Below are positions 97-52,193 of a DNA stretch of 53,060 nucleotides, in pieces. Source of the DNA: Phoronis australis (lineage: Eukaryota; Animalia; Phoronida); assembly GCA_002633005.1 (NCBI GenBank), contig NMRA01000745.1:9841-62900 (forward strand), read 5' to 3'. The translations under genes were made by a program, and so were the position numbers. The stretch's first letter is position 1. Each line of letters begins with the position of its first letter. The notes under the pieces were generated by a model, which saw only the letters and a list, made by a program, of their open reading frames with translations, was not told where the DNA came from and did not search any database.

Positions 97-213
97 CAAT
101 TTCACAACGATTGCCGGAATACCCGGGGCGACAATTGCAGGTAAAGACGCCTTCACGTAGGCCACATGTTCCACCATTAATGCAAAGGTCAGGGTAACAG
201 GGATCAAGGGGTC
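97..213 (-). CDS. Gene B exon: EGF-like domain
   Basis: ttttag|..|gtaagt, phase 1-1; [38 protein letters not shown], canonical 6 Cys. Confidence 0.93.
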
Positions 214-3200: not shown

Positions 3201-6200
3201 TGCACAATGCAAAACAACTATATTTTTCAGAGTGAACCCCCCCTCTCAATTTTTTCCAAGTTGGTTTACTTGGGGTTTACACACGCTGGCGGTGCCGTTT
3301 TTGTTTTGCTGGAGACGCTTTTGTTTTTTTTAATTTTTGGGTCCTGGCCCGAGGGGGGTTTGAACCCCCTGAACCCCCCCGTAGATCGGCCACTGAAACA
3401 TGTTATTTCATTAATCTGAGTGACCTTCATAACAGCCCAGAGCATAGCAGCAGTAGTAATCTACTTAGCTCAGCACACAGGGAAAAATGTCTGAATAGAG
3501 GTTTGGCAACAAACGCAATAAGTTAATGAAGTTGCACGCTTCTTTAAAACTATTTGAGTTACTGATCGTGTGAGAAAAATGCGTTTTAGTTAAAGCGGCG
3601 TCACAATGAAAGTTGCAGTGTTTGCGATGAACTGCTGTTGGCGAGTCATTTACTGAACAATGTTAGTTTCTTGATAATTCTGATCATCATCAATCATCAA
3701 GAACGTCATCAAAGTCATCATCATTATCCACATCAACTTAACATTTATTATTGACTGTCACCGTAGCTGTTCCCTCCTGTCATTTTGTCATATCGTTATC
3801 TTCATTGTGGTTGTCGTTGCTTGATTTCCTAAGGTGTCACTCTTTAAGCTGCTTTCGTTGTTTTCCGTTTCAACGGCTGTCATGGGCAAGGTGAGACCAA
3901 CTGATCACCAAAGTCTGCATACTCTTATGCACCCCATCCGTTTGCCAACACTACGTGCTTATATACATGTAAGTTTCATTCCGAGTTAAAGAGAAGGACT
4001 AATCCGGTGGTGTATAACTTTGAGGTCTTTATGAAATGTATGCGCGTCAGTCACTAAATCGTATTTTGGATTTTTCTTCATACACGTAAATGGGTAGCTA
4101 GTGTGACACCAGGTATTGGCTGCTAAAAACGTTTCTTTTCTTCCAAAACACATTGGGTTACCAGTGCTACCGACTAAACAGTTTCATTTTAATACGCTAT
4201 ATGAGAGCCTCCGTCCTGTTACGAACTTCTCTGTAAGATTTGGTTGATGGATGATTTTGTGCAGCAAGCTTCGGTGTACTTGACTTACTAGGACCTACAT
4301 GTCATGTACAATATCAGGAGGGCGGTGGCCGCTTTAATTTAACATTGAAATATGATTGTAAAACTCAGCAAACTCGCAACACTTCCACACCGCTACCCCT
4401 TGTAGTTTGGGGGTCACATTACGATTATTGTTTAGCTCACCTCTCAGGATGGCAATTATTGACGGTTACTAGCAGATGGCAATGAATCCATTCACAACGT
4501 CAAACATGTAGGTCCTTTTCCGCCAGATACGCGGCTCCATAAAAACGTAAAAACGTCAAAGACGCTAATGTTTGTACGAAATCCTTGATAACTTTGCAAT
4601 GAGGTGAAGATAAGATATAGTTCTTGGGTTGGGGCTGCAGTGTCACACTATCGTCGGCGACACAAGTTTTCGTGCAAAATTTTGCCAAGGTTTGACAATG
4701 CACAGGTTCATGTATTGAAAATCACAAATAAGATCACGTAGGCTCCAGTTTGATATTCTGCAACCAGTAGTAATATCAGGTAATGTTATAGTGCCTTTGT
4801 TAACTGGTGCTAACTAGTTTGTAATGTTCCCACACTCCTTATACAACAAAATTATTAAACCAGATTTATTGCCCGATTTAATAGGACATAGAGGTCAACC
4901 CATGCTTTTCCCATGTCCACTCGAAATTGACTTGTTAGACTCGAAGAGTCTAGGGAGTGACTTGTTTTCGTACAGCATACATGTACATATTTACATGGTT
5001 TTGCGCATTTTCGCCAATTTCTGTTGGAGAACAAAACTGCAAATACTACTGAAACGCCTCAACATCTCATTGGAGTATCCTTCATAGACAGATTTACCTG
5101 TACATGCTCCTTCCGCTACCTTGTCCTTGATTTCGATCAACGCGATGAAGTCTTCCACTAAGAAAACGTTTTCGAAGTCGAGACCCATGTACTGAGCTGT
5201 GTAGTTTTCATAGCCGGTGTTATATCCGATACCTAAGATACCCAAAATATAGAACTGAAAAATTGACAACATTAATGTAAGTACGTTACTGCGTGCATTG
5301 CGTTTTTATCACAATAACCAATTACTGTATTGATAGTCCCGTGCCTGTCTCGATTTGCATCAACACGCCTACCTCTACAACTTACCAATCGCGAAGACGT
5401 GGATGTTCTTGCCGTGCAATTTCTTAATTTCGTCTTCTGTGAGACTATAGATTGCGTCAGTCACAAAGACGGCAAGGTGTGGAACCCCCAAGCGTGAGCC
5501 GTTGTCAGTTTTGAAACTATTATCCAAGATGTACCTGTAGAGAAAAGGGTGTCAGTTTTTAGCGCGATTTTGATAACAGTTAGGTGCCAAGGATTCTAAT
5601 TTTAATTTTAACTCATATTTTCAGCTGTTGTATTTAAACAAAGTATTTATGCCAATCTCATGACAGCAATTGACCAAAGCTAGAAATTAGTTTTTTGTTA
5701 GTTTTTTTGTGCCGGGAGGCTGGCCTTTAAGGGGATACTAACCCCCTATTTGATGACTGCCCCAGTCCTTATTCTGTCACCTGCTAATGATTAATTGGCG
5801 TCAATCTCCCAAGTTTGAGGCAGGTACATGTATGCACAAAAAACTCATTCTCCCTATGTCAGATTGGACAATATTGTACTTGGTGGGTGGTATTTTCCCA
5901 ATGCTGTCGTGTAATTGACCTATCGCAAGCTCCCACCCATGGCGAAATGTCGACAAACAAACAATTGTTTTACACGGCAACGTGTTGTTTGTCGGGTAAA
6001 ATGGAAGCTTGCAAACGAAGGTGTGTAGAAAATGCTTCGTTCTGATTGGTCACTCAAGCCGTCACTCAAAGTCCTGGCAATAGGTCAATTGACCTAACGC
6101 AAGATCCGCCCCTTTATGAAATTAACATGATACCCGATAATCAAACAAGATACCAGGGAAGAATACCTATGTACACTGTCGCAACACGGCGTTCACGATG

Positions 6201-9200
6201 GGATTCACGAGTGTTTTCTAGATTACTCAAAAACTCTTAGACAGAGACAAAGAGTCATGCTTCTCAGCAGAGAGTCGTATGTTCATGATGTTAGAATTTG
6301 CAAAGGCGACGATTAAATAATAAGTGTTCGGAGGAAAGTATTTATGAGCCAACGAATGTCTGAAGAATCGTACACAAAACTTTGGTACAGCACTTAATGA
6401 TGCCATACAGCAAATTTTGTCATTCAAAGTACTAACTTTGAAATTAGACCACTTGCTACAAAATTGACATGAATTTGATCTTTAAATAAGAAGAGACAAG
6501 ACAATTAAGCAATTCTCAAAGTACATGTACGGTCTTGCACAATAACCATCTACAGTATCAGTTTTCTACCGTTTCCCAGATGTCGCTTTTGATCCAAGTA
6601 ATGAACAATGCGAATTTAATTTCTTTGCGGAAATATTTATCAATTCAAAAGTTTGTGATGCCAAAAACCAGTTGTGTTGCTCCATTAAGACAAAAGTTAG
6701 ACCCAACTTTTGATGAACTTCAATTTTTTGTAATATCATTGCATAAAGCTAGCTTCTAATCAATTTTAAACGTAGTATGATCACTAAGCTGAGGTATATT
6801 TGCAAAATATGGTTGTTAACAAAAATAACCCAAGTATCATCGTTGAAATACAAAATGAGCTCTCTCCTACTCCACAGGTGACGTGTAAACAAGAGGTTTT
6901 TTCGTGACAACAGTTCAAGATTTGAGTTCAGTGGTCCAGTGACCCTCCTGTGCCAATCAAACATGTCAATTTTGAAGGGAAGTTCAGTTGGACGTCAGCC
7001 TACGGATATATGAGTAACAAGAACACTGTTTCTCACTTTTGTTACGAACCAAAACGATGTCCATTTAATACGAAATGTTCTTAAAACAACAACCCAGGCT
7101 ACGGCTAGTGGCAGTGCTGGGCTCCAGCATGAGCCTAGACAAAATCGGCGCGACGAGTGGAGCTCATGAGTCAAAATCAAATACAGTGTATGCCTACACT
7201 ACAGCAACCAATCTAAACATTCAAACAGAACTTGGGACAATTATATTTATGTTTAGTCTTAGAATAATCATGCAACATTGGCTAGTTGAGGTGATCGGGG
7301 GGCTGTCCACACAGTTGACCCATTGCTTATACCGTTCGAGATCACTTTTTGGCTTGAGGAATGCATAAAAGTGACCGGATTTTCTTTTCGAGCTGTCATA
7401 ATTGCACACGCCACAGACACAGTTTCACCATTCTAATCGCAAATTTTCTTGATCTACAAACTAAAACAAGCCTTTCCCGACAAGGTATTCTTATTCGAGC
7501 AAAATGGCGGCTTGGAAACGTAGACGAAGGTGTGTCAAGAATGCTGCGTTCTGATTGGTCAGTTAAGCCGTCAGTTAAAAGCCTGACGATAAGTCAATAC
7601 ATACAATCGTTTGAAAGGAGTCTTCACATTTTTTCCAAGCTTTTCGGGGTTTCAGAGAAATAGAAGCTAAAATCGCTTTTAGTATATGTTGATAGGCCAA
7701 AACCGAGGTTGGTATCGTTTTAGGCTTTTCTTCTACACCAGAAGTATTGATGTTTTGACATATATTTTCTAGACTTCTTCATCTGTCTAATGCGCGTCTG
7801 CAGTGTCGTGGTGTTTGTGGGGCGTTGTGGCACCTATAAGCTTTCATAAAAAAAAATTTCAACAGAACGCTGCCATACTTGCTTGATCATCTTACAAGAA
7901 TTATTTTTAGGTATACTAAAAATGGTACAAACATGTTCTAGGATAGAGTCTGACCTCCCGTCAATTGGTGACTGGAATTCGAGTGGTTTTCAAAAATACT
8001 AGACAGTCTTCGTTCGATGAACTTTGCCACACTGTCAAACTTGGATAGCCATATTTCCAGAATAACTTAGCCCTTAAGTCGAAGTTTTGATACAATCAAA
8101 CTGGATTTTCATTTGGCGACATTTTGCAGGAGTGAAAAGTGACGTTATTGCTCCTGCATGTACTCACTCGTGCACATAATTTACGATTGGACTGCAGTAA
8201 CCTTTTGCAATTTCGACATCGTCGCTGATAATTAGTCATCTCTGCATATATGGTCAACGCCATCATCACCGCAATTCTGAATGGTTTTGTCTCAATCGGC
8301 ATTATCAACAATCCACCAGTCTAGGGGTATAGTCTATACTTACTGCACGGCTTTCCCTATATCTGTACCACCTTCCGTGTAATTGGCTTCATTCACTTTT
8401 CTAACCATGTCTGCCTTGTTGTTGAAATGGTTCAGATGGAACTGGTTGCACACGTCAAAGTCAAATGTAACCATACCTGAATATTTAACGCAGTGTGTTT
8501 AAAAATACATTACCGTTCGTTTAGTTTTCGCCCCTTTGATGAAAAGCTACCCAGTTCATATTAAGGACTTTAGCAAAAAGATATCTCGGCCATGTTGTCG
8601 TAAAAACTTTAGTGTAACGTTGGAGTATAAGCGCTTTATTGATGACTTTGTGTAAAGCAAGCTGTTTTGTTGAGGTTTTATTTCTCTTGCGATCCAATTA
8701 AAGTTTTTGGATCGCGTTGGCTAACCAAAACTTTCCAAGTTCAGAATACATTCTAAAGGGATATGGTCTGACCTGGCATTACTGAAGTGTAGAGTTGATT
8801 TGTTCATTAAGAAATGCGTTTTTACAGAAATTTTCTGTCGTAGCACATACATGTAGGAAGTGCCAATTGTGTGTTACAACAATATCTCATTCAAGGCATG
8901 CATTCGCTAGCAGACTGTTTGCAAATCATTATTCACATAGGCACGAGCGAGTAGTAATTGAAAACATCACTGTTTATGAAAGACAATTGCATTAATAACT
9001 GGTGGTCCTTTCATGCTTCCCTCCCATTTATGATGTCCTTATATCCTTCTTTCTTCTGCAAAAGTCTTCATTTCTTCCTTTCCTAATTAAATCGAATGGG
9101 TCAAGATGTCATCTTTCAAGATAAGGAGAACACATCTCGCATCATGGGACGAAACTGATAAATTGATAAGCGATGGATATATGGTTTTTGAAAATTTGAA

Positions 9201-10698
9201 ACAATTTTGCGGCATTGACATTCAAAGTTCTTTGATAACTCTAATAAACTAGTGTCAAATTGACTACAAAAGAAGACAAATTTTGAAAATCACAACTCAG
9301 GGTGGCTAAAGATGCAATGTCTCATTACATTGTGAATATGCAAATAAAGTTCTAATTTACAAATAGCCCCTGGATTTTCAGTATGTCCGAAATCATCCGA
9401 GAACCAGTTACCATTACAATCTCGTGAAAGTCTCGATTTGCGAAACTACATTTATGTGAATGAGTACGGTAATGTTTCACCCTTACCCTAATTAAACAAG
9501 GCACAGTTTTAATTAATTGTTTATTTCACTATCAAAGAACGTTTGAGGAATATTTGGAATTACGAGGAGGGTTCTGTCTTGTTCTTAACAGCACCAATTC
9601 GGGGGCAATTCATGTCTAATTTTTTTCTTTCCCTGGTTATACTTGTACACACAGTTTTCCGGGAAGTCACTACTACCAATTACAAAATTCTCTCTTTTAA
9701 TCACACATAGCATATTTAACACAATTTAACTCACTTAAACAGCTGTTCCTTACCAATTCTGACTTTTGCATGCCCCACTTCAAATGAGTTGATGACATCT
9801 ACCACAAAGTTCAGTTGTTTAGACCAGTTTTCATCTCCTATACTGCAGGAAGCGTCAACGACAAAAACAATGTCGGCCTGCTTAAGTGAGCATCCTATGT
9901 GAGATAAATATCCAAAAGGCAACGATTAAACCGTAGAGCACCGTATAGATCGACAGCAATATAACAACAAGGTGGAAATAGGCACTTTTCAAAATTATGA
10001 ACGAAATCTGCCGAAAAACATCCTCCTAATTAATCATGGTGTATATTGCGCAGGTATAGTACTATGATATTAGGACATTTCAAATCGCCAAATTATTTAT
10101 ATCAAAGCGGTTATACATGTGTTTCAAACAATAGAAATGACAGTCCCTACAATAATTATTCTCATTCTCAATACTCGAGGAATATCAATGTTGCACCCAT
10201 TGTGAGTCATTAGATGCATTTTGGGTTCTACTATCTCAAGTTATGACTGGTGGAACTATTGAGGAAAAACACAATGTTTATTAAAATTCTTGCAGCGGAA
10301 ACTATTGAAACATTTACATGTATTGCTTCAGAAAATGTAATTCTGATATTTGCTTTTCAGTGACCACGACTGGACAACGTTAACACTTTCTGTTCTAATT
10401 CAAGTTAATGCTAGAGTTGCTTTCAAAAATAAGGGATGTATTGTATGCATTGTGACAGTACTCGCGATTTCCATCTTTGAAACGATTGACCCTCAGCAAA
10501 GATGACATCAACCATCACCATGTCTCTAAAATGTGAACACTCGAAATGAGTTTTTGTAAATTTAAAGCCTTTAAATTTACAAAAACTCTTTAAAAACAGT
10601 TCCCACCATGACTCAGTGTCTAAAAAGAATTGTGCTGATACATCTTAAAATACGCAATGGCCTTTAGTATACCTGTTGCTAAGAAACAAGTTATAAGT

Positions 10699-10759
<61 letters not shown>

Positions 10760-20851: not shown

Positions 20852-20974
20852 AGAAAAGGGAGAGAGGAAAGAGGGAGGGGCGAGGGACGGAGAGAGGTAT
20901 CGAGGGCGGGAGAGCGGGCGAGAGAGCGGGAGGGAGAGGTGGGGTAGAAGAGATTCGAGGGAAAGAGAGAGGGA
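20852..20974. repeat. Polypurine GA/G-rich tract
   Basis: Strongly purine-biased on the + strand, with many GGG runs. Confidence 0.85.
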
Positions 20975-21279: not shown

Positions 21280-21502
21280 TTAATTATCTACGTAGTTCAA
21301 CTCCAGTAGTTCGTCGTAGGTCGGAATCACAATAGGTTTTACTTTAGGCTCAACTGTAAAAGTACCGGGTTTCTTCTCGAAGTCGTAAATTTTGTTGTAT
21401 GTGGGCGGCATAGGGGCCACCTTCCCTCGTGAGTATATGGGTCGTGTTCCTCCTCTTTGATTGGTCCCCTTGTATTTTTGCAGTGGACCCTGATCGCGCT
21501 CT
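21280..21502 (-). CDS. Gene A last coding exon: cytoplasmic tail
   Basis: tttcag| phase 2; [12 protein letters not shown]…[13 protein letters not shown]…[17 protein letters not shown]. Confidence 0.78.
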
Positions 21503-39500: not shown

Positions 39501-42500
39501 CTAAGTGATTCACGACCAGAGAACGGTCAGCCCCTGAATTTTCCACTAATCATATTAGCTTTTTACAACACCTGGTATGGAAATTCTCCCGTTTTACCAA
39601 CAACATCCACTGCCATGGCTTTGTCCTGGTTACATCTTCGCTGTGTAGAGGTCATCATTGGTAGATCCAACCGAACAGTAGTGGACATTTTCCGGCATTA
39701 TAATAACAAAAAATGAGTTAAAACGCTGTCTATGCCAGAAGATGAAACATCCCGTTCACATTACATTGGATCAGTACGTGGCGCTGAATGCCTGTCCACC
39801 AAACATCTGATCGCCGTTTTGCGGGTAAGTGGTTTTCAATATGGCGCGGCTATTTCGAAAGTCAGCTACACTGGTTGCAGGCTCGTGTGTTATATGTATA
39901 GAATTGATGATGATGACAACATGTGAGTGACACAGACACGTTACACACAGTCACACAAAACTTGGAAACCGTGCGAATTATGAGAGTTATAGCAATGTGT
40001 CTTCCATAGAGGAGGGATTTTTAATGTTTTTTACTTCAGTGTTGCCAAGCAACAGACACAGAAGCCATTGACAATGAAGCACCTTCAGAGGGTGCTGCTG
40101 GGAACGGAAAGGGACCGTAAGCAAATAGGTTCGAATAAGTGGCCGCCGGTGTAGCCGTCGTTTCTGGTGAGGAGTGGGATAACGCGGCAAATTAAGAAGA
40201 CGATGCCCGCACCACTGCTGATGTTTCTTCATCGCAAGTGAAAGAACATAAAGATTGCCGGAGGTCAGCAAACAAATATGAGGCAAAGGCATAAGTTTAA
40301 GTTTCGTTTATTACTTGGAATTAAATATGACGCAAGTCCTACGATAGGGTCTAGCTGGAGTACGCAAGAACAGAAATATACGACAAAAATTGTCATTTCG
40401 CCCTGCGTTTAAAGGTGTGCACTGGTTCAAGGTAAGGTGAGATAAACAGTTTAGTTTATGTAGTTTAAATGTTACACAGAGCATTTTTTCAATTTATTTT
40501 TCATTTTAGCAACTGCGGTACGGAAATGTTGAAATCATCGTGTCATAAAATATAGAAAAATGTGTATCCTATTGCGACACATAATCAAATCTTGAATGAC
40601 ACCTGACTTTTAAACAAAAAAACTTCAAAACAATTTTGAATATTTTTAGCGAAATTTAATGTCAACTAAATCGGCAATTAACAATGAAATAATTAGAATA
40701 CTATTTAAAATGTCAACACAAAAGATTTTGTGTTTATTTAATGCAACGTATAGTAAATTGTGTTATGATTAGACCTTAACCAATTAAAGAGTAGGCAGCT
40801 GAACATGCCTTTCAGTTCAGCAAAAGTCTTCATGTTGTCGGTGACGCCGAAGATGAGACAAAATGAAAGAGGAATTGCGAGCCCTTAAACCACTCAATAA
40901 GTAGCATCTCGTGACTAAATTCTGTTGAATAACACAGATGAATAGGTAAAGATCTTAATCGTTAGATTCCATTGTAAAATATTGTTAACAAAGGTTAAAA
41001 CACTTTCTAAGTAGCAACTGATGACGTTACCGTCCACAATGACTGACGCGATCCAAATAGGTGACAAAACTTTTTCCACAAATATTACCACAAATGCTTC
41101 ACCCAAAATTATTTTTTTACTATGTGGTATGCGTTATTTTTCGATCATGTCTGCAGAATTTTTTCAAAACGAAAAAATGGTTCAACTGCCTTATTTCGAC
41201 TTCCTTGTGGTCTTCATTTGCAGTCTTCTCACAGGCAACACAGTCTCACATGTAGATCAGAAGGGAATCTGTGAGCAAAGACCCCAACCGTAGGTGTATT
41301 GTCACTACTTTCCACTACAGAGCGGTATGGTGATCTCCTTTAAATGCCATCCTCGGTTAAATTAAAACTATCGTGTTAAAATTCGTTAGAAACACTAGAA
41401 CTTTAGGCACACCTAAATGGAGAAACTCGACCGACTCGACATTGCTTGGGTCATTTGTCACTTTCGCGAGGTGTTTACGGGAGATGAACGAATCTGACAA
41501 GTTCGTGTTTTCTTACTTTTGTGGGGAAACGGGAGCGTTTTTAAACGTAAACTACACACGAATTGCGAAATAAAAAATCAAGAAATTTATGTAAGACATG
41601 CATTTATATTAGGATCATCAAATAAGCTTTCAATCTATCCCTTTAATTATAGGTCACGTGATCTACCAGGTGTATGAAGACATATAATGCTATGTTATAC
41701 CACACCGTATGAGCGCTGTATTTTTGATGTCACATGTAGTTTTAGATAGGATGTATGGATGCGCCTGTCTAAGCCCTATTAGCGTAACCAGGTGAATCAT
41801 ACTTAAAACGAAATCAATATCTTACTCTGACATTTAGGTGGATCCTGCCACTGTCCATTTTCTTGACAAGTGATGTTCGACTCTCCTCTAAGGTCATACC
41901 CGATGTTGCAATAGTACAAAGCCTCCTGTCTGCCAGTTATGTCATCGGATTCACGAATAATCTGGTTTCTCCAACCATTTCGGACATACGGCGCTGAACC
42001 ACACTCTCGAACTGCAAAGATAAAAAGACCGGTGCATGTAAAGCGTTTAACTTAACTTTATCTCACTCAAACCTCTTGTTTAAGTAAGTTTGCTTACACA
42101 TGAAACATAAGGCATTAGGTTATCTTGGTTTCCATGAAGCGAGCGGAAGACCCATAAATTTGTGTACTTATAGTCCGTAATTTACACTAAATCTCATCAT
42201 GTGCACCACAGTAATGTCACGATTTCTTGTTCACATGACTGGGTCATTTCTAACAAATCGTCAATTTTCACTGAGATAGCTGTTTTTCCACAAACTTGAA
42301 ATTTGAAATAAAATGTTTGTTCATTCCGCCATTTAACACTCCTTAAGGTTACGTAGGAAGCTCCAGAAATTTCCAAATTTGTCTGAATCGGCTGATTGAG
42401 AATTTCTGATAGTTTAATTCATGCATTGTTCTCTAACACTTCCTATGGGATTGTTTTTAAAATGTTCCCGTTTTGTATGCGAGCCTATAAAAATGACTTT

Positions 42501-45500
42501 TATGACTTTTCAAAATTGCATTAAACGAAAACGAAATGACTTTTACAGTAACAGCGTTTTCCTTATGTATTGAAAAAGATTTGATCATCTCATTGACAAC
42601 GCTGTTTTGCTATACATATACCTTTCTTTTTAGCTAAATTTTGGTTAATAGATGGTCACGATATCAAATTAAAAATGGATTGGTAAAAGTCCACAATCAA
42701 ATTCTAAAGGCTTTTGTACTTTCAGAAAACTTATACTCTTACCGATTTAAAATCTATAGCTTTGAAGATATTTGGTTAAATACTGAGACTTGTACAAACG
42801 TGCTATATACTTTAACCTTAACACCTTTCCTAAGCAGTTCTTTTCAAATACCGATTAAAACGCGGCTATCCAGGCGTCTCAGAAGAAAGCGTTTTCACCA
42901 ATTACTTTTTGAATTGAGAGGACATTCAGCTATCCTGCAGTTACATCCTCGAACCAAGACATTCCCTGAAGATACATGTACTATTCCTGTTCATAGTTAT
43001 GTAATTACAGCTGTATATTGAGACTCCTTTGCTGAGTGTATACATCCCGTGCAGAACACGAAACGATTTTGAAATTAAATAAGTTTGTTGCAAGCATGTA
43101 TTATGAGAAGGTTTGGTTAAGTTAGAAGCGGTGTTATGAACGTATTGTGGAACCGTATGTGAGCGAGCAGGTAGCCTGCGATATCAAACGGATTAGAAAA
43201 AAACTAATCCACCACCCACCCTAAGTGGTATGCCAAACAGAAGTCCACAACATGCGGAATTTGCATTCTTTCTTTGATCGCCAATCATTTCAGCCAACTT
43301 ACAATTGTTCTGCTTGCGTGAATGACGTACGTCCATGCAATGAGCTACATGTACTCCTGTGACAGCTTTCCTGATTGGCTCCAATGGTGAATACTACATG
43401 TAAAAGGTTGTGGTTAGCGTAATTTACGCATTCGGTCAGGTTGTTCTAGTCTCCTATGCAGTGAACAGTAAGAGTATGTTGTAAACTTGAGGTAAGATGG
43501 ACAGACGTGAGTAGCAATGTACGGTGTATCAAAAGCACCATTGACCAAGCATCAGTAAATTTCAGGATGTTAAAACATGTTACCGTGACAATACGTGTGT
43601 GTGTAATCTCTCGTGCACGAGCAGTTGTACCCGCCAATATTCCGGTCACAAGTTGCTCCGTTCGTGCATCTGTTGCCGTCACAGTTATCTGCAAAGTGAA
43701 ACCACGGTGCCATTGTTACTATTGAATTGACTTTTAGTGTATACGACCTTCTTCAATAAAAATAATGATGGGAATCACTGATTCTCGAAAATGCATAAAA
43801 TGTAAACTTGCAAGCACCTGCCTTTGCGCACTATGGTTACGAAATAGCTTGGCCCTGATTGTATCAACTCTTTTAGAAATACCTATTATCCATTGACAGA
43901 GTAACTCAGAAGTTTTATTTGTATTGTACACATCAGTCTTTTAAATCAAGACTGAGTTCGCAATCCATAAGCAACGAATTCTTTAGACACACAGAAGCAA
44001 AGTAAAGCGCCTCAAAATTGAACCACAAATGTCTTTGAAACAAATACCTGTTTGGCAGTGTGTTCCTCGAAACCCAGACTGACACTTGCACACATATCCT
44101 ATCCACCGGTCTAGCTTCAAACAGGTGCCTCCGTTTTGGCAAGGATTAGACAAGCACGGATCTGGAATGACAGGGATCCCAATACAAATAAAACATTGTA
44201 ACCCCTCGCATGCAAACATTGCCTTAAACATATATATGACCTTATGAACATGTCTGCATACATATATTTAGCCAAATATATATTAAACCATGCATTCCAT
44301 ATGTATTTTTGAATCTAGTAGGCATGTAGATTGCTAGATTGGTTAACAATCTGCCATTTATTGGGTCAAGTCACTATGTCGTTTGGTTTTATTAGCAAAA
44401 AAATGAAAGTTGCTAGAGCAATTCAACGATGCCGTACCTTTAACATGGCCGTTTGATATAAACATTCAAGGTGAAATCTTACAAAATAGGACCGTTTGTC
44501 ATTGCTCAATACAAAAAGCCCTGCCCCTAGTTGAAGCCTATTAATACTCTGTTTGTTCCTCTGCTTCATTGTCACTCACTCAATCTCCCCACATGTCGTC
44601 AGCAGTTTCACATTAATGTTTGACCCCCGGTGAATTCATCTGACTGACACGTAGGCAAAAATAAAAAAATGAAACAAACGTCGTAATAACCACATTCAAA
44701 TGCAATGCTTGGGTATGTTCGTGGATATTATAAATCCTCGACGAGCGATTTCTGGAGACCTGATGTTGGAGTAACAAAATGCTTGATTAGAAAGTTTTTT
44801 GATTGATCATAGATACAGAAAGCAGACATTATCCTTGTAGGAGCAATGCCGTGTATTTGAAAAAGCTGTAAAATAACATTCCAATGCAATACAATTCTTT
44901 GTAAAACTTACAACCACGAACATGAAACAAAAACAGAACGATTTCAACACAAAAAGTATTCGGCGCAATAGCCACTACGCTACCTGTTATTAACGCACCG
45001 ATTTCCCGGTGGAGGCGCATGGTGCACGTGTTGGCGTAGTTCACTGAGAAGCAAGCTTCGAAGACTCGCTATCGATTGCGAGTATAAAAAGGCAGTAAAA
45101 AGTGGTGAGGTAAAAATGTAAGTGATAGTTGTATTTTTCACGTACATGTGTCAGTGACATATGCTGTAGACAATACTATCTAAGGAATCGAAGGGTAACT
45201 TCTTACCTATGCAGTGAGGTGCTTGTTGCCATGTTCCGTCATCCTGACAACGTATGGTGTTACTTCCTCTCATGTCACGCATTGGGTTACACCCATAGGT
45301 GGCTTCCTGTCGGTGGTTTTTGATAAATTCTTTCTCAACATTACCGTCAAGGACGTTTGGAGGAGGGCCACATTTTATAGCTAAAGTAAATAACTGAAAC
45401 TCACAATCAGGCTGTCAAAACCATTGCAGTTTATTTTTAATGAAGTCAATCACTGCTACCTCATAAATCAATATATGAGTATACACTTAAAGTGTCGAAT

Positions 45501-48500
45501 TTTCGATGGGCTGTGAAAAAATTACCGAAAGGTTTAGGCACCTTGCAAATTTTATTCTTAATTCTCCTTCATCCTCGGTCATGAAGGAAGACTTACTATG
45601 AATTCGGTTTCCGCATAGCCGTCTTGACGGAAAATTCCGAGTCATTATGTCGGAATACTTTTGGCTTGTACATGTACATGTAGGTTATTCTCATACATGG
45701 GAACACTACTTCGATATTCTTTGCACATGCAAATGTAGGTTATCTTCATACATGAGAATTCTACTGCCATATCCTGTCGAGCATTCATTTCGTCTGGCAA
45801 TTCCCAGATTCAAATGAATTCTAAACGGAAAAGTGATCAGCAATCAGAAACCCAAAGTCTTTCGTATGCCTTTTAAAGATTTCATTTAAAAGTTAGTGTT
45901 TTTTTTAATTGAAAACTCGTCTATGCTATTGAAAAACATCGTGTAGGTCGTTGTCTCGAAATTTCTATTAACGGGTTTCTAAATTTGGAGTGGGATGTAC
46001 ACCTTTGTCTATGACAAGCCTCGCCAATTCTAATGGATCAACCCATTGCACACGAGGAAGAAGATTCTGAATATTTTATGGTGATGGCATAAGGCATCCC
46101 GGTGGCTCTGGGGATAAAAGTGCACAGATTCTTACAGAATACAGAATTGTGTACATCAGGTGTAACAATTGTTTTTTTAATTTGACAATAGTAAAATAAA
46201 TGAGTAAATTAAAAAACAACAGTGTAAGGTTTAGTCGAAAATAAAGGAGAATGCCACCCAAAAAAACCTATTTTGTATCGATTTAGATCGAGTAGTTCCA
46301 CTCGATAACAGCAAGTTCAGTTGTTTTACCTGACACCTGATGGCAGACGGAGGTGTTGAATTAACCAATGACGAAATCGATTCGAACGCAGTCTGTTCAG
46401 CCGTTCACAACACGCTTACTGTTGTCAACTTATCGTTTTACACCAATGAATCATCAAATTTGGATGTAAAAACCTTAAAAATACATTGAGTTCTTGAAAA
46501 ACGCTTTGTTTTATTTCACTGTTACGGATTTTTATGTATATGAACGTACGGTAGCCTACAGAGTTCGGTCAAAGAGTGTAGACTCCTAGGTTCGGCAGGC
46601 CAATTTATCATGGTCGATCGCCGGAGTTTGAGTCTGTTTGGTAATTAATTCGAATCATTCTTTCGTGAAATGCAGACATGAAAGAGAGTCGTGTGTTGTA
46701 CTTTTATATTTGCAATCTTTTTCAGTTCTAACCACAGAAAACGCTTGTTATCCCAGCCAGTGTCTCGGAACCCGATCAAGCCCGTCGCGGTCGCCGAGAC
46801 TGGACATCACAAACATAAACAAGCTTAAGTTGGAAACCAAACCTCAAGTCAGGAAAAGACTATAGTAGTGAGCCAAAGAAATAATGTGCACGTAAATATT
46901 TTGGTGAGTTAGCCACGAAACTGCAAATCTACTTTCTTGTCGGGGGCCGCGAAGTCAAGTTGCCCTTTTGCAGAACAGTCAGAACAAAAGTTGTACAGTA
47001 ACAGTGATGTGAAAAATGTACTTGTATATCTAAATAAAGATTTCCCTAGCATGTGACCATCGCATATCGAGTTATTGTTTCACAACAGCTTTCTGTCAGC
47101 AAACACTGAGTTACCATGCGCTCACACGGCCTCGGTGCCTGGTCAGTTACCTTAACTTTATTGCGTCAGAAGCCGGTAACCAAGTGTTTTTTTCAATGCA
47201 TGCTTCTCAAAACATTTGCACTCAAGAATACTCTAGGTATTAAGGGTATTACAAATTGTATCTTAAGAGACAGACTTTTTTCAGTTTGAGACTTTTTTCA
47301 GTTTGAAAATAATTCATCTTGAAAGACAACGCAGAACAATAAACGTCAACATGGCAACTCACAATCCAGACGTAGACGAGAGCTCACCCGACGAAGACTT
47401 CGCAGGTGGGTCGAGGTTTCGCAGACTATCAGGTCGAACAGGAATATCGTGATCAAGAAATACTAGAGAGGTGCCGTGAATATGCAACGGAACGTATGTA
47501 TAGTTCTTTGGTAAGCTGGCATTCGTCAGACTCACTGTCGACGACTGCCGGCCACAGACACGAAGATGTTTCACGGCCTCATACTTGCTATTAACAGCGT
47601 ACTTTTAATTCTTCGCTACCGCGAGCCACTTCCTAAGCATTTCGGACTCTCAAGGAAGTCGAAAAACTATACCCGCTTTCCTTGCATCTTCATAGTTCGG
47701 ACAAGCTGGAACGATGCACCGCAGCATAACGGCATTCACTCTGCAAATGAACCACTGACGTCGCTGCGTCGTTTCTCACCTTCCTCGCAGGTTAATGCGA
47801 CACCTCTTAGCAAGTTAAGGTCGACCGTAGGCGAGGCGATGTGGCTATAGACCGATTATGACGGTAAAAAACTATTTAAAGCGAGTGGCATTCTCCTTTA
47901 AATATAGTCCTGCACCTCGGCCTAGTACCTTTCCACTTGCAGCTGGCAACTACACTGCAGGATCGCGGGTAGGGAACTATGTGCGAGAGCAAAGCTGTTT
48001 GTGCGAGAGAAAAAAAAACGTGTCAAGAAGATGCGGAAATGAGCCTATGTGTCTGTGAGAGGTGTTTCTTTTCGTAGGAAAAGAATTTTGTTGGCAGGCA
48101 GACCAGGAACACGAGGGAAGGGAAGTCTATTTGCCCTAGTTGTGCAAGTATTTGTACAAACCTTCACAAAAACTACCAATGTAGTTGTTGTTACATAAAC
48201 AACTACAAGTAAACGCTGATCTTTTGTAAATTCCGTGGTAGCATCTATGATTCCGGCATACATCTAAAGAAATAACAATGATAATGATAATAAAGATCAT
48301 AATGAATGTACATTGTGCAGGGTAGGAAGTGAAGCCTGCTCGATATAATCCAACACGTGTACTGCACTTTTTCGAATATCCCAAAGTACGCGGTACTTCA
48401 CGCGTTAATCCGGGAGGATTTTGCTTTCCAAAGATGAATATAAAAGACTACGTCTCTTAAATAGAAACCTTTTTGAGAAATTTCATGGAAATACATCGAC

Positions 48501-51500
48501 GAACTCCTAAAATACAGACGCAAACTTTATGAACAAAAACTGCCAGTGAGGGCACAGTGGAAGCCAAAAGGGCCTGAAACTCGCAATAATTTGTTGTAAT
48601 CTCCATGGAAACACGTCTTCAAATTTTCACAAAGATCCTACACAGGGTTAAGGAGACACATCTGTAGACTCAAAACAACGCCAATACGGGGAGCCAAAAT
48701 TGCCGAACCCGTTCGAATGATAACTTCAGCCACGGCCTTTTCATCACAAACACATTTTGCAATTTTAGGATTGATCATTTGAGTAGTTTAGACGGTAGAG
48801 CTGCGCACCCCAAAAAAGAACACGAAACTGTTAAAAATACCTACTTGGTGGTGCACAATGCGACTAATGCGTCCAAAAAATGGGAAGACATTGTCGACGC
48901 CTTTATAGAAACCTTTTTTCCAAATTTCGTGAAAATCAACCAATGAAGACCGAAGAGGCACCCACACGGGAAAGGGTCACAATCATTGTCGAATTGCTCT
49001 GAAACGTGCCAACATCCGTTGCCAGCTCCACGGGAACAAATCTGTCAAATTCCACGAAGTTCTTGCAAAGGATTAAAGTCCTTCTCTCACGCATTGTTAA
49101 CCTTTATTACATGGTTAGAGGATGTTATAAGGATCCAAGAAGTACCTACCCTATAACTAATACACAATCCGTACTCGAAAAAAGTTTAAATGACCGCACC
49201 ACTCACAATTCACACCCGAAGAACGACCGCCATTTTGAACTTGCCGCGAACCCGGAAGTACAATTCATTCAGGAACCCAGGCCGAGAAAACGCCGTCAGT
49301 GCGACTGGAGCAGTGCCTGTACTGTTACCAGCCAGCAAACGGGGATAAAATAATCGACAGCGCGCCTTAATTTTAATAATATCAAACTACGGACAATTTT
49401 ATCGAATTTGCTGAAGAAATGTGGCGAATAAATTTTGACAGAAATTATTTTGCCAGACTCGGGGCCGCAGCCTATCAGACCCCGTGTGGATCGAGACCAG
49501 ACACTGGCTAACGGTAAATGCATGCAGTTGCAAGCTGTTTTGTCGAAGAAAAATGGTCAAATCATAAATGCTCCATATATTCAAGGGTAGTTTCAGACAC
49601 TTGCATGAAATTACGGGCTGGTTAGTCTTGTGTCACACTGCCGCGGCAGACCTTAGCTAGCCTCAGTCACCAGCTACCAGTGAAGACTATCGTCAAAATA
49701 CAGCTTGTTAGTAGGCCTATACAGCTTTGCGCCAAGGCTACCCTTAGGCCTATCTGGTCGCTGGCCACAGCGCTCACTCAAACGAGGTTTATTTAGAACT
49801 TGGGTACTTCTGGCGAACTGTGCAAAGCTATTGGCTTTCAATAGAGATTTTCCCAGACTTTGTATGAGCGCACCAAGCCTAAAAGAATGGGGGGCTGGAA
49901 TTTTTGGGAATGTCTATCTTTTGCTATAAGATTCAGTGGGTATGTTCAGTGCTATGAATTGCAGACTCTAAATTTTGGTACTTCCTGTTTTCTAGTGGAA
50001 TATTGTCTCATTTTCTACTTTTTTTTGGAATTCGTGCTTCTGTGACTGAGGCAGACCTTTTTTCCAGTTCTCCAAAAAGGGGGCTCGTTGGAGCACATAA
50101 GTATGACAAGTCCAATACAACATATTATCATTTTTTATTCATTACGCCAAAATGATTCAAACTTTTAACATAATAAGAAACTTAAAATGCACAATACTTT
50201 ATATTATTTAGCATTACAAACACTATTCAACAGCAACAGTTTCCATGATATGAAAGTGGACAAACATGTTACTATTACCATGGTGACCGAATAGTGATTC
50301 CTTACACCAGAATTTGACAAGCATCATTTCAAAAAATATGAAGTTGCAAGGAACAAGAATTAGAGGCTTGAAGCTTCACAATACAACATAGCTTATTTCT
50401 CAAATTAAGATTAGTCATATTGTTGACTTGATAACCTGAATTAAAAAGCAATAAATTACAAAACATGACTTGAAAGCAATTGAGACTTAAAATTTTGAAA
50501 AATATGAATCATTTTGTGACACCGAATCAAGTCTTGAACATCAGTTGACAGTCAAACAAAAAACCATTTCAAAATTATTTCAACTATTTTTTTAACTTAG
50601 TGTAAAATCACCTGAATGGGAAATTTACAGTAAAATTGTTCAAATATATCTTATATTTTTGCACAAAAGACACGAAAATTGAACAAAGTTTCTTTTTTTA
50701 GCAACGTTTGTCAAAATGTATCAACGTTAAATCTTCACAAATTACAAAGTAGCCGATTGAACATGCCTTTCAGTTCAGCAAAAGTCGCCATGTTGTCGGT
50801 GCCGCCAGAAATGAGACGAAGTCCAACGGGAATTGTGAGCACAATTATCACTTAATGAGTAACAACTGCGAGGCTGAAATTTGGTGAACACGGTTAAATC
50901 GTGCAGAATAGTAAGTAAAGATATGTGTAACTAAATTTCACCGTAATTTGTTGGCGAAAACAATTTACACAAAGTTTAAAACTCGTAACTTATCCCGCTG
51001 TGCTCCAATATGGCCGACGCGATCCAAACAAAGTGACCCAAATTTCGCCACAAAACTTGCAATAAATTTACACTGCTTGCCCCGATGTTGATACTTTTTC
51101 GATTTTTAGTGAGTAAAATGCACTACCTTTCCGATGATAGCAAAGTACTTTTCAAAACGAGAAAAAAATAAAACCGAAAAATTAGTTTCGACCCATATTG
51201 GTTCCTAGGTTCGACCGGCCTAAGTAAGGAACTAAACACCAAATTAATGCTATTTTAACATACTAAGTGCGCGTAACATTCCAAAAAACATCAACGACCA
51301 CTAACTACAAACTATAAATACACTACATATGCAAACAAATCACGAGATATTACTAACAAAACAAAATAATGAATACTTTTCGAGCAAGCGATAGCACATT
51401 CAGTTACAAGGAAAAAATGGCGGCTTTCAGAACAAGTTCCTGAACTGATGAGGCGGAAATGTGGGTACGGAAATAACCGATGACAACCGGTAATCATACG

Positions 51501-52193
51501 CTCAGAGAGAAGGGTCAAATACTGTTCAAAAATCGCTTTTGGCAAGAAAGGCGAAAAGAATATAAAGAAAGGGTGTCGAAAATAAGATTTTATGTAGTAA
51601 GTATTTTCGGATACTGGAACCACATGGGCAGTTTGAGAGAAGAACTTTAAGGAACGCAAAAACAAAATAGAATTTCCAGTAAGGGTCGCCAGAGTCTGAA
51701 AATCATCGCCAACTACTGTTTCCTCATTAGAAACTCACCTGGGAATTTTCATAAAGATCCTTCCAGCGGTTCGGCAGAAAGAGAAGAGGTCAACAAAAAA
51801 CAGACTTGAAAATTTAATAAAGTGTCTACTAGGTGATTCATGACCGCCAAAAACTTCTGAAACTTGTGTTACAAGTTGTTTGAACCGAAGCTTGTTTTTG
51901 TGACGGAAGGCAAGATTCTAGATTTCTAAGCATTTCTCAATCTCAAGTTTTTTGTTATTTTCCTATCAATTAAAATGTCCGAAAATTGCGACATTCAGTT
52001 AATCAATTATATACATTGTCAAAGTGCTACTCCATCCACATTGGACTACGAAAGCGTGTAGTCTAATTGTACTTACCATATTCGCACCGTTTCCCGGAAT
52101 ACCCGGGGCGACATCTGCAGGCATAGTCCCCTCCACGTGGTCCGCAGGTTCCACCGTTATCGCAAGGGTCAGGGTAACAGGGATCAAGAGGTC
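21280..52193 (-). CDS. Gene A (5'-partial): multi-exon type I transmembrane protein, EGF x6 / CCP(sushi) x3 / uncharacterised ectodomain / TM / cytoplasmic tail
   Basis: 19 AG/GT-bounded exons translated by hand: 52077-52193, 48162-48263, 45207-45380, 44048-44161, 43584-43688, 41826-42011, 38340-38513, 37777-37836, 32129-32262, 31215-31290, 30607-30805, 29919-30053, 29337-29475, 29016-29150, 28545-28684, 26759-26877, 26303-26500, 24115-24313, 21280-21502. Phases match at every junction. The total is 2729 nt with no internal stop. Confidence 0.88.
21726..23397. mobile_element. Non-autonomous Kolobok-like DNA transposon, copy 1
   Basis: TTAA|AGGAGCATGCCGCCCAA … TTGGGTGGCATTCTCCT|TTAA terminal inverted repeats. 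Alignable end to end with 46245-47897 and carries a THAP relic. Confidence 0.8.
24115..24313 (-). CDS. Gene A exon: end of EGF, juxtamembrane segment and transmembrane helix
   Basis: atttag|..|gtgagt; GDLCE…[26 protein letters not shown] followed by basic stop-transfer RKR. Confidence 0.9.
26303..26500 (-). CDS. Gene A exon: end of X domain plus membrane-proximal EGF
   Basis: ttgcag|..|gtaagc; [66 protein letters not shown]. The sixth Cys comes from the next exon. Confidence 0.9.
26759..26877 (-). CDS. Gene A exon: X domain
   Basis: tttacag|..|gtaatc, phase 2-1; [39 protein letters not shown]. Confidence 0.85.
27239..27401. mobile_element. MITE of the CAGTGGCGGAT family, TSD GAACA
   Basis: GAACA|CAGTGGTGGATTTAG … CTGGATCCGCCCATA|GAACA; internally similar to 39043-39201. 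Confidence 0.75.
27582..27652 (-). mobile_element. Degenerate tRNA-derived SINE head
   Basis: A-box-like TAGGTCAATGGTTAGAGCA with a decayed B-box. Confidence 0.4.
28545..28684 (-). CDS. Gene A exon: X domain
   Basis: ccgcag|..|gtatgt, phase 0-2; [46 protein letters not shown]. Confidence 0.85.
29016..29150 (-). CDS. Gene A exon: X domain
   Basis: ttccag|..|gtacag, phase 0-0; [45 protein letters not shown]. Confidence 0.88.
29337..29475 (-). CDS. Gene A exon: X domain with DxDGDxxRCRW motif
   Basis: cttcag|..|gttagt, phase 2-0; [46 protein letters not shown]. Confidence 0.88.
29919..30053 (-). CDS. Gene A exon: X domain
   Basis: ttccag|..|gtgcgt, phase 2-2; [44 protein letters not shown]. 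Confidence 0.83.
30130..30410. repeat. Decayed (CAT/CAC)n trinucleotide low-complexity tract; similar tracts at about 3680-3820 and 52660-52860
   Basis: ATC/ACC/GTC triplet periodicity producing spurious I/T/V/M-rich ORFs. Confidence 0.75.
30607..30805 (-). CDS. Gene A exon: X domain
   Basis: ttacag|..|gtgagg, phase 1-2; [66 protein letters not shown]. Confidence 0.87.
31215..31290 (-). CDS. Gene A exon: X domain
   Basis: tttcag|..|gtgagt, phase 0-1; [25 protein letters not shown]. Confidence 0.85.
32129..32262 (-). CDS. Gene A exon: second half of split EGF and start of X domain
   Basis: tcccag|..|gtgagg; [45 protein letters not shown]. An alternative in-frame donor lies at 32105. Confidence 0.85.
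33747..34913. mobile_element. Harbinger-like non-autonomous TIR element with a nested MITE (about 34378-34529)
   Basis: CAGCCGATTTCATAAAGGTGGTTTAA … TTAAACCACCTTCATGAAATGGGCTG. It has many subterminal AAACCAGG/CCTGGT repeats, and the nested element ends GATTCGCCCCTG. Confidence 0.7.
36075..36750. repeat. Degenerate ~21-bp minisatellite (GGGGAGTTGCTTTCTTGGGAA-like)
   Basis: About 30 diverged tandem units with a recurring GTTGCTTTC core. Confidence 0.85.
37540..37740 (-). mobile_element. tRNA-derived SINE-like element
   Basis: B-box GGTTCGAGTCC within a TPsiC-like stem (GTGGGTTCGAGTCCCGC), followed by a non-tRNA body. No complete cloverleaf. Confidence 0.55.
37777..37836 (-). CDS. Gene A exon: first half of split EGF
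   Basis: ttacag|..|gtaaat; [19 protein letters not shown] (C1-C3). Confidence 0.85.
38340..38513 (-). CDS. Gene A exon: CCP/sushi domain 3
   Basis: tcacag|..|gtaaga; [12 protein letters not shown]…[33 protein letters not shown]. Confidence 0.93.
39043..39201. mobile_element. MITE of the same family, TSD CTGAT/CTGAC
   Basis: CAGTGTCAGATTTAG … CTGCATCCGCCCCTG. Confidence 0.7.
40790..41180. repeat. Dispersed repeat, second copy at about 50750-51160
   Basis: Shared TGAACATGCCTTTCAGTTCAGCAAAAGTC..CATGTTGTCGGTG and GACGCGATCCAAA blocks. Confidence 0.7.
41826..42011 (-). CDS. Gene A exon: CCP/sushi domain 2
   Basis: ttgcag|..|gtaaga; [13 protein letters not shown]…[32 protein letters not shown]. 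Confidence 0.93.
43584..43688 (-). CDS. Gene A exon: EGF-like domain
   Basis: ttgcag|..|gtaaca; [34 protein letters not shown]. Confidence 0.9.
44048..44161 (-). CDS. Gene A exon: EGF-like domain
   Basis: ttccag|..|gtattt; [37 protein letters not shown]. Confidence 0.93.
45207..45380 (-). CDS. Gene A exon: CCP/sushi domain 1
   Basis: ctttag|..|gtaaga; [13 protein letters not shown]…[33 protein letters not shown]. Confidence 0.92.
46245..47897. mobile_element. Non-autonomous Kolobok-like DNA transposon, copy 2
   Basis: ATAA|AGGAGAATGCCACCC … GAGTGGCATTCTCCT|TTAA; same orientation as copy 1. Confidence 0.8.
47545..47727 (-). pseudogene. THAP zinc-finger relic inside the Kolobok-like element (counterpart about 23035-23224)
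   Basis: [11 protein letters not shown]…[15 protein letters not shown]…HLRVCG: THAP C-x4-C, P, W and C pattern with two stops. Confidence 0.7.
48162..48263 (-). CDS. Gene A exon: atypical EGF-like domain
   Basis: ctttag|..|gtttgt, phase 1-1; [33 protein letters not shown]. Confidence 0.8.
52077..52193 (-). CDS. Gene A exon: EGF-like domain, paralogous to 97-213
   Basis: ttttag|..|gtaagt; [38 protein letters not shown]. Confidence 0.93.

What the first reader, a model, noticed from the sequence alone, without database searches (positions are those of the whole stretch)
97..52193. Tandem paralogous cell-surface receptors with an unusual SP-vWA-(EGF/CCP)n-X-EGF-TM architecture
Seen: the window holds the 3' part of one gene and the 5' part of another on the same strand, overlapping in a homologous EGF exon 51,980 bp apart. 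Inference: splicing the two at that exon reconstructs a ~1,110 aa protein, SP-vWA-EGF-EGF-CCP-EGF-EGF-CCP-CCP-EGF-X-EGF-TM-tail. Known vWA+CCP proteins (complement factor B/C2, SVEP1) and EGF+CCP receptors (selectins) do not match this order or carry the X domain. This looks like an undescribed, tandemly expanded adhesion/recognition receptor family. Any immune, allorecognition or gamete role is speculation.
Basis: partly seen in the sequence, partly recalled or inferred. Interest (0 to 1): 0.85.

Follow-up and report, generated by a model that had tools for sequence, protein, structure and literature searches.

The report
Amoeba-type adhesion module in animal receptors
An invertebrate genome carries side-by-side copies of a gene, transcribed and spliced in this species, for a predicted cell-surface adhesion or recognition receptor that joins a predicted metal-binding head to a little-studied module also found in amoeba adhesion proteins and bacteria, and one copy often splices into a repeat, which would give a short form without the membrane anchor.

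Summary
The minus strand holds the 3' part of gene B (19 exons, 908 codons, no stop) and the 5' part of paralogue A (vWA with intact MIDAS, then EGF). Their shared EGF exon is 81% identical and 51,980 bp apart. RNA reads confirm 6 of 12 testable introns and show a vWA-like exon upstream of B.

X is not unknown. It is a 364-residue, three-beta-sandwich module homologous to mollusc, coral, sea-star and bacterial proteins, many matching the Pfam N-terminal domain of Dictyostelium Sib adhesion proteins (NCBI 'integrin beta-like protein').

What appears new is the arrangement. None of 61 homologues lists vWA, and 58 of 61 start with the module. Here it sits near the membrane, diverged, with its HFRG motif lost.

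Three points go against the single 1,110-aa picture. No signal-peptide exon was found. The EGF1-EGF2 joint was not seen: B's EGF1 often splices into a repeat-derived exon with an early stop. A third copy goes from an EGF1-like to an EGF4-like exon. Verdict: a new variant of a known, uncharacterised kind; an immune or gamete role is untested.

The parts
52077..52193 (-). Gene B EGF1 exon, paralogous to 97-213
   Evidence: Pfam EGF above cut-off; covered by stranded RNA reads, 64 in X1 and 20 in X2 at 95% identity or more
50844..50873 (-). Start of a cryptic exon in a dispersed repeat (50470-50888, second copy 40529-40929); after EGF1 it reads eight codons, then two stops; its 3' end is unknown
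   Evidence: Loose ends of 10 of 10 reads in X2 and the consensus of 27 reads (agreement 0.69) in X1 match 30/30 here; canonical AG acceptor
48162..48263 (-). B EGF2, atypical EGF-like exon
   Evidence: GT-AG, phase 1-1; weak Pfam hit E 0.054; not tested with reads
45207..45380 (-). B CCP1 (Sushi)
   Evidence: Pfam Sushi E 3e-9; not tested with reads
44048..44161 (-). B EGF3
   Evidence: Pfam EGF E 6.5e-10; not tested with reads
43584..43688 (-). B EGF4
   Evidence: Pfam EGF E 1.3e-4; its first 13 nt match the exon that follows EGF1 in the third copy
41826..42011 (-). B CCP2
   Evidence: Pfam Sushi E 7.9e-9; stranded depth about 11x in X1 and 1.4x in X2, estimated from bin means
38340..38513 (-). 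B CCP3
   Evidence: Pfam Sushi E 3.3e-10; depth about 8x and 5x
37777..37836 (-). B EGF5, first half
   Evidence: Pfam EGF E 0.026; in frame with 32262
32129..32262 (-). B EGF5 second half and start of the Sib-type module (reads YYIGG where homologues have HFRGG)
   Evidence: joint 31290/32129 in 9 + 12 reads
31215..31290 (-). Sib-type module exon X2 (domain 1)
   Evidence: joints on both sides seen; most reads differ from the window at 6 places
30607..30805 (-). Sib-type module exon X3 (domain 1)
   Evidence: joint 30805/31215 in 8 + 7 + 2 reads
29919..30053 (-). Sib-type module exon X4 (domain 1/2 linker, N-x-S-P)
   Evidence: only an inexact joint 30010/30605 listed
29337..29475 (-). Sib-type module exon X5 (domain 2, D-x-D-G-D, CRW)
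   Evidence: query; joint 29150/29337 in 14 + 4 reads
29016..29150 (-). Sib-type module exon X6 (domain 2)
   Evidence: joints on both sides seen
28545..28684 (-). Sib-type module exon X7 (domain 3)
   Evidence: joints on both sides seen
26759..26877 (-). Sib-type module exon X8 (domain 3)
   Evidence: joint 26877/28545 in 6 + 6 reads
26303..26500 (-). End of the Sib-type module and EGF6
   Evidence: Pfam EGF E 2.6e-4; joint 24313/26303 in 17 + 12 reads
24115..24313 (-). Juxtamembrane stalk and the only predicted transmembrane helix
   Evidence: single hydropathy peak above 1.6 in 908 aa; depth about 26x in X1
21283..21502 (-). Predicted cytoplasmic tail exon with stop (PPTY, YNKI, YDEL; no NPxY)
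   Evidence: in phase with the TM exon; joint not tested with reads
9754..9894 (-). Gene A vWA exon 1 (DxSxS intact)
   Evidence: Pfam VWA E 1.2e-8; best PDB sequence hits are collagen VI chains
8344..8476 (-). Gene A vWA exon 2 (MIDAS Thr)
   Evidence: Pfam VWA E 2.2e-4
5386..5534 (-). Gene A vWA exon 3 (MIDAS Asp)
   Evidence: Pfam VWA E 1e-3
5098..5232 (-). Gene A vWA exon 4
   Evidence: in frame; no Pfam hit alone; its end matches B's upstream exon 24/30
97..213 (-). Gene A EGF1 exon
   Evidence: Pfam EGF E 6e-6; 81% identical to B EGF1

Best explanation
The window holds two tandem paralogues of a gene, transcribed and spliced in this species, that likely encodes a single-pass adhesion/recognition receptor, predicted to grip its ligand with a metal-dependent vWA head held out on an EGF/CCP rod and a Sib-type stalk. 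Shown: exon chain, vWA exon upstream of B, six spliced introns from the module to the TM exon, homology of X to the Sib-type module. Inferred: the intact MIDAS binds an acidic residue of a matrix or cell-surface ligand through Mg2+/Mn2+, as collagen VI, integrin alpha-I and similar domains do (established knowledge). The module (beta-sandwich, cadherin-like, Ig-like) is likely a calcium-stiffened spacer, not the binding tip, because it keeps the cadherin-like acidic residues but has lost the N-terminal HFRG motif and the N-terminal position. The tail would recruit WW-domain ubiquitin ligases (PPxY) and clathrin adaptors (Yxx-hydrophobic), so turnover by endocytosis is likelier than talin anchoring. 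The gene likely arose when a vWA-EGF-CCP block was shuffled, on phase-1 introns, in front of an ordinary Sib-module-EGF-TM gene, then duplicated. Copies now differ in rod length, and B also makes a transcript that would stop after vWA-EGF1.
For: Exon chain without stops. Joints and strand. vWA-like exon upstream of B in 37 + 11 reads. MIDAS DxSxS, Thr and Asp present in A. X scores 140 bits against a homologue profile, best of 200 shuffles 4.6; each of its three domains scores against the animal profile (32, 98, 24 bits; best of 500 shuffles about 7) and domain 2 against the bacterial-type profile (33 bits vs 9). Homologues pass the Pfam SIBA-E_N cut-off (P0002, P0044, P0080, P0083). AlphaFold model of a homologue's module, pLDDT 86.6: domain 2 matches cadherin repeats (Z 8.7-8.9, rmsd 2.0-2.3, 90-93 aligned), domain 3 Ig-like domains (Z 10.5, rmsd 2.1-2.7, 89-95 aligned). 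The window keeps 34 of 44 conserved columns, including N-x-S-P, D-x-D-x-D and E-D. One TM peak and tail motifs. Mollusc and nemertean homologues also run module-EGF-TM.
Against: No signal-peptide exon identified. The EGF1-EGF2 joint was not seen; 10 of 10 B-type reads in X2 and roughly 16 of 27 in X1 (estimated from agreement 0.69) go to the cryptic exon. Reads on the module and TM exons may come from another copy, since exon X2 differs at 6 places in 21-22 of 21-22 reads in X1. MIDAS was read from A, not from B. The window's own exons do not hit SIBA-E models singly, so the link to Sib is transitive. The fold was predicted for homologues, not for the window's protein. Tail motifs are short and can arise by chance. 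No ligand, tissue or localisation data.
Confidence: 0.6

Rival explanations
1. B is a decaying or switched-off copy: the repeat insertion created a poison exon, most B transcripts are truncated or degraded, and the full-length receptor comes from other copies.
For: 10 of 10 B-type reads in X2 leave EGF1 for the cryptic exon, which stops after eight codons; CCP2 depth is only about 1.4x in X2 against about 11x on the module; B's module is the longest branch of the tree, 2.37 changes per column.
Against: All 19 exons are open with canonical sites; in X1 about 11 of 27 reads go elsewhere and CCP2 has about 11x depth; truncated reads are abundant, which strong nonsense-mediated decay would lower.
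Confidence: 0.2
2. The cluster is a diversified immune or self/non-self receptor family, in which copies vary in architecture and the short vWA-EGF form is a regulated soluble decoy.
For: [quoted passage not shown]
Against: No ITAM or ITIM pattern (for ITIM; YNKI and YDEL are 27 residues apart); B alleles in X1 differ at only 2 places in EGF1; copy number unknown; no tissue data.
Confidence: 0.2
3. The protein is a membrane-tethered organiser of extracellular or skeletal matrix, shed from secretory epithelia, like the vWA/CCP shell proteins and the ZP-bearing coral homologues.
For: The vWA is closest to collagen VI among solved structures; vWA + CCP proteins occur in mollusc shell matrix (PMC11291548, passages); many homologues pair the module with ZP, CUB or SRCR domains.
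Against: No chitin-binding, laminin G or ZP domain; a 79-residue tail with sorting motifs is predicted.
Confidence: 0.15
4. The tandem pair is an assembly artefact (two haplotypes of one gene placed side by side).
For: The window has two N gaps and ends in a poly-T run.
Against: A and B differ at 22 of 117 exon bases and 10 of 38 residues, whereas B-type allelic reads differ at 2 places; the reads also hold a third, distinct version.
Confidence: 0.03

Closest known systems
Animal Sib-module proteins (NCBI 'integrin beta-like protein A/C' and uncharacterised models; Pfam PF24907 SIBA-E_N, PF24908, PF24910), e.g. scallop, oyster and clam module-EGF(n)-TM proteins (P0027, P0029, P0032, P0036) and module-CCP(n)-TM (P0002)
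   Same: The whole three-domain module (25-31% identity over 280-370 residues to P0013, P0026, P0027, P0028, P0002), followed directly by EGF and a TM helix.
   Different: Homologues begin with the module right after the signal peptide, mostly with (S/N)HFR; 58 of 61 start within 41 residues. None of 61 lists vWA or Sushi (P0002, found separately, has Sushi but no vWA). Here the module is internal, diverged and behind vWA-EGF-CCP.
Dictyostelium SibA-E adhesion receptors
   Same: Single-pass adhesion protein with a vWA domain and, by transitive Pfam homology, the same N-terminal domains (vWA, glycine-rich TM and talin-binding tail described in PMC3279395 and PMC9453864, passages).
   Different: By Pfam's domain names the module is N-terminal in Sib, so the order is reversed here; the vWA is collagen VI-like; EGF/CCP rod present; no NPxY, no GxxxG. 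Not an orthologue.
SVEP1/polydom and complement factor B/C2 (architectures recalled)
   Same: vWA with CCP, plus EGF in SVEP1. P0002 carries an automatic SVEP1-like name.
   Different: Secreted; no Sib module or TM; SVEP1 has pentraxin and HYR domains, factor B a protease.
Molluscan PifCCP / PifG shell-matrix proteins
   Same: vWA followed by CCP repeats (PMC11291548, passages).
   Different: Chitin-binding and laminin G domains in PifCCP; no Sib module, EGF or TM described in the passages read.
Selectins (architecture recalled)
   Same: Head-EGF-CCP rod-TM layout.
   Different: C-type lectin head instead of vWA; no Sib module.

Membership tests
Animal Sib-module proteins | Homology across all three domains of the module | tested here: met
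   32, 98 and 24 bits against profiles of 50 animal copies; best of 500 shuffles about 7
Animal Sib-module proteins | Conserved N-x-S-P, D-x-D-x-D, CRW and E-D residues of domain 2 | tested here: met
   34 of 44 columns conserved in 90% of 50 animal copies are kept, these among them
Animal Sib-module proteins | Module at the mature N-terminus beginning HFR | tested here: not met
   Module starts about 370 residues into B's in-window part and reads YYIGG
Pfam PF24907 SIBA-E_N | Direct score above the curated cut-off | tested here: inconclusive
   Only single exons could be scanned and none hit; homologues pass
Dictyostelium Sib proteins | vWA domain with MIDAS | tested here: met
   Pfam VWA on 3 of 4 exons and DxSxS, T, D in gene A; B's vWA lies outside the window
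Dictyostelium Sib proteins | NPxY motifs in the tail (talin binding) | tested here: not met
   No NPxY in the 79-residue predicted tail; NKIY only
Dictyostelium Sib proteins | GxxxG in the transmembrane helix | tested here: not met
   No GxxxG in residues 806-835
Dictyostelium Sib proteins | Adhesion function and talin binding | not testable with these tools
   Needs experiments
SVEP1/polydom | Secreted, with pentraxin/HYR domains and no TM | tested here: not met
   TM exon spliced to EGF6 in 17 + 12 reads; no such domains among the exons scanned
Complement factor B/C2 | CCP-vWA-serine protease order | tested here: not met
   vWA precedes EGF; no protease exon among those scanned
Selectins | N-terminal C-type lectin domain | tested here: not met
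   The exon before EGF1 is vWA-like in both A and B
Type I membrane receptor | Cleavable signal peptide | tested here: inconclusive
   Candidates at chance level; no reads laid on gene A's 5' region
Type I membrane receptor | One transmembrane helix followed by basic residues and a tail | tested here: met
   Single hydropathy peak, then RKR

The most novel reading that the evidence does not exclude
An animal lineage has rebuilt a Sib-like adhesion receptor independently and in reverse order, putting a MIDAS vWA head on the ancient bacterial/amoebozoan Sib module, and has expanded it into a cluster of receptors of variable rod length with a regulated, repeat-derived soluble vWA-EGF decoy: an undescribed recognition system.
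Probability: 0.2. Interest if true: 0.8.

Novelty: new variant of a known kind. Interest (0 to 1): 0.5.

Why it matters
The papers read describe Sib proteins as confined to dictyostelids or amoebozoans (PMC2651865, PMC9453864, bioRxiv 10.1101/2020.04.29.069435; passages). Yet the module at their N-terminus heads many coral, mollusc and sea-star proteins: 17 of 52 eukaryote hits list PF24907. I found no functional study of it in animals (searches). This locus gives a natural experiment: the module moved inward, lost HFRG and gained a vWA head. That makes testable whether HFRG marks a ligand site at a free N-terminus, and whether a vWA plus Sib-module adhesion receptor arose twice. Mosaic EGF/CCP/vWA receptors in tandem are common in invertebrates, so without function the surprise is moderate.

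Tried and rejected
No whole genome is held, so flanks and genome-wide copy number could not be checked. The word-based protein search with exon X5 alone found nothing; phmmer over representatives found 16 hits, of which four (P0001, P0003, P0009, P0011) match only through short repeated stretches and were dropped. Pfam found no family for X exons singly. No PDB sequence relative of the module at E below 0.2. Domain 1 alone gives only generic beta-sandwich matches (best Z 7.1); Foldseek gives tandem Ig and cadherin proteins at TM about 0.2.

Signal-peptide scan: chance level. A read-through tail at 24114-23988 was set aside because depth in that bin is fully explained by the TM exon in X1. ORFs 35302-35039, 34632-34303 and 30285-29998 are not part of the gene: they lie in introns of the in-frame chain and have no Pfam hit. 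An internal duplication of an EGF-EGF-CCP cassette in B is only weakly supported (EGF1/EGF3 16/37, EGF2/EGF4 9/33, CCP1/CCP2 24/57 vs CCP1/CCP3 21/57). The tree is the quick version and places the window on a long branch near mollusc module-EGF proteins (support 91, not starred), so the phylum is not assigned. No indexed RNA holder was listed; X4 contigs did not cover the exons. The original Sib papers are not held. PMC7148315's 'integrin beta-like protein' is a true integrin. Earlier findings of the scan: none on this family. bioRxiv supplements were closed and no PMC supplements were read; tables there could list such proteins.
Full report
Setting. The window is animal DNA (spliced genes, about 39% GC, two N gaps). 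No whole genome is held, so the flanks could not be read.

Exon chain. On the minus strand, 18 exons from 52193 to 24115 join through 17 of 17 GT-AG introns into 834 codons without a stop. An exon at 21502-21283 is in phase and adds a tail and stop, giving 908 residues. The order is EGF, atypical EGF, CCP, EGF, EGF, CCP, CCP, EGF, X (364 aa), EGF, TM, tail. Five exons from 9894 to 97 give vWA then EGF, 224 codons, 4 of 4 introns GT-AG. Pfam confirms EGF, Sushi and VWA. The vWA has DxSxS, Thr and Asp, a complete MIDAS by the recalled consensus. The two EGF1 exons are 51,980 bp apart, 95/117 nt and 28/38 aa identical, with homologous upstream intron. tblastn of the spliced products finds no further exons of these kinds in the window.

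Signal peptide. Not found. The best candidate (13824-13767) has a donor score of 4.8, below all 23 real donors (5.3-10.6), and similar candidates appear in three control intron regions. It overlaps, off frame, what looks like a LINE endonuclease remnant (motif recalled; no Pfam hit).

RNA evidence for. Three raw RNA runs with the same species label were laid on 23,500-43,499. Six of the 12 predicted introns in that stretch appear exactly among the 15 joints listed (32 more were not shown): 4-17 reads each in X1 and X2, all with the first mate on +, as expected for minus-strand RNA. Laid on 52,000-52,300, 37 reads in X1 and 11 in X2 run from B's EGF1 into an upstream exon whose end matches A's last vWA exon at 24 of 30 bases and in frame.

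RNA evidence against a single product. At the other end of EGF1, 10 of 10 reads in X2 and the consensus of 27 reads in X1 (agreement 0.69, roughly 16 reads) continue into 50873-50844. This is a canonical acceptor inside a dispersed repeat, and it reads eight codons and stops. The EGF1-EGF2 joint was not displayed; the remaining X1 reads may carry it, and CCP2 has about 11x depth in X1 but 1.4x in X2. A further 12 + 10 reads come from a third version of the exon, unlike both A and B (14/17 and 22/30 to A, 10/17 and 18/30 to B), which splices straight to an exon starting like B's EGF4 (13/13). It could be a third paralogue or a very divergent allele of A; intron reads unlike both point the same way. 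Exon X2 differs from the window at six places in 21-22 of 21-22 reads in X1, 10-13 of 15-18 in X2 and 0 of 2 in X3, so some confirmed joints may belong to another copy.

What X is. phmmer with exon X5 found 16 proteins, among them clam and mussel proteins; P0002 passes the Pfam cut-off for SIBA-E_N, 'Integrin beta-like protein A-E, N-terminal'. A profile of ten homologues found 61 proteins of 654-2000 aa (word-limited, 7,988 candidates scored): molluscs, a nemertean, corals, a sea star, unnamed records and nine bacterial or bacterial-looking ones; several are named 'integrin beta-like protein A/C'. PF24907 is listed for 17 of 52 eukaryote and 7 of 9 other hits. The spliced X scores 140 bits on that profile against 4.6 for the best of 200 shuffles, and each of its three domains is supported. 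The ESM Atlas shows the same fold in mollusc, echinoderm, rotifer and Bacteroidota clusters. A model of a scallop homologue's module (pLDDT 86.6) has three beta-sandwiches: domain 2 resembles cadherin repeats, domain 3 Ig-like domains, domain 1 only generic sandwiches. These Z values show a common fold, not a function.

What differs from homologues. In 58 of 61 the module starts within the first 41 residues (some are truncated models), typically right after a signal peptide with (S/N)HFR. Partners are EGF, CUB, ZP, SRCR, F5/8 or, in P0002, Sushi. None of the 61 lists vWA. In the window the module is internal, reads YYIGG, lacks two domain-1 cysteines and the conserved R and D, but keeps 34 of 44 conserved columns, including the acidic set that in cadherins binds calcium (role recalled). 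It is the longest branch in a quick tree of 57 copies (partial copies left out), loosely beside mollusc module-EGF proteins.

Mechanism. Best reading (0.6): a single-pass adhesion/recognition receptor with a cation-dependent vWA tip, an EGF/CCP rod, a calcium-stiffened Sib-type stalk and a tail whose PPTY and Yxx-hydrophobic motifs would drive ubiquitin- and clathrin-linked turnover. Exon structure, splicing and homology are shown; ligand, calcium binding and tail partners are inferred. Rivals: B as a decaying copy (0.2), a diversified immune or self-recognition cluster with a decoy (0.2), a matrix organiser (0.15), an assembly artefact (0.03); these overlap in part.

Literature. Sib proteins are described as adhesion receptors with vWA, glycine-rich TM and NPxY tails, and as confined to dictyostelids or amoebozoans (PMC3279395, PMC9453864, PMC2651865, bioRxiv 10.1101/2020.04.29.069435; passages). 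The window's protein fails the NPxY and GxxxG tests and is not a Sib member, though it may work like one. vWA-CCP shell proteins (PMC11291548, passages) lack the module. Searches (listings and abstract starts) showed no paper on an animal vWA-EGF/CCP-Sib-module receptor; most subscription journals are not in the library, and diverged orthologues could have been missed by the capped protein searches.

Verdict. Real, expressed tandem paralogues with an architecture not seen among the homologues found, built on a module that databases already name but that I found no animal study of. New variant of a known kind; interest 0.5.

Noticed in passing
window 15776-10900, minus strand: LINE-like element upstream of gene A's vWA: a 253-codon ORF1-like frame (15776-15018, coiled-coil hits only), an ORF2-like start running into the N gap 14922-14235, degenerate remnants below, then a (TA)n run at about 10760-10700. 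Assignment rests on recalled motifs; no Pfam RT or endonuclease hit.
   Followed up: partly
window 21723-23401 and 46242-47901: A 1.7-kb repeat pair at 75% identity; THAP-like fragments at 22998-23273 (E 0.009) and 7224-7424 (E 0.057) suggest DNA-transposon remnants.
   Followed up: no
window 32263-37776 (intron inside EGF5): 5.5-kb intron with K/P-rich low-complexity repeats at about 36,000-36,900 and ORFs 35302-35039 and 34632-34303 without Pfam hits; RNA reads pile on both strands at 33,500-35,500.
   Followed up: partly
window 31504-32170: More reads from the opposite orientation than from the gene's (4.9 vs 2.3 in X1, 4.3 vs 2.3 in X2), some nearly identical to the window; no long plus-strand ORF seen. 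Antisense RNA or a repeat.
   Followed up: partly
homologues P0026-P0084: The (S/N/T/A)H(F/Y)R start right behind the signal peptide is conserved from bacteria-like records to corals and molluscs, which hints at a functional site at the free N-terminus.
   Followed up: partly
P0002 (XP_052795625.1): This 3,259-aa clam model looks like two tandem module-CCP(n)-TM genes fused by annotation, another tandem duplication in the family.
   Followed up: no
window 19900-18650, minus strand: Probable second, degenerate LINE 3' end finishing in short TAC repeats (recalled pattern, no Pfam hit).
   Followed up: no
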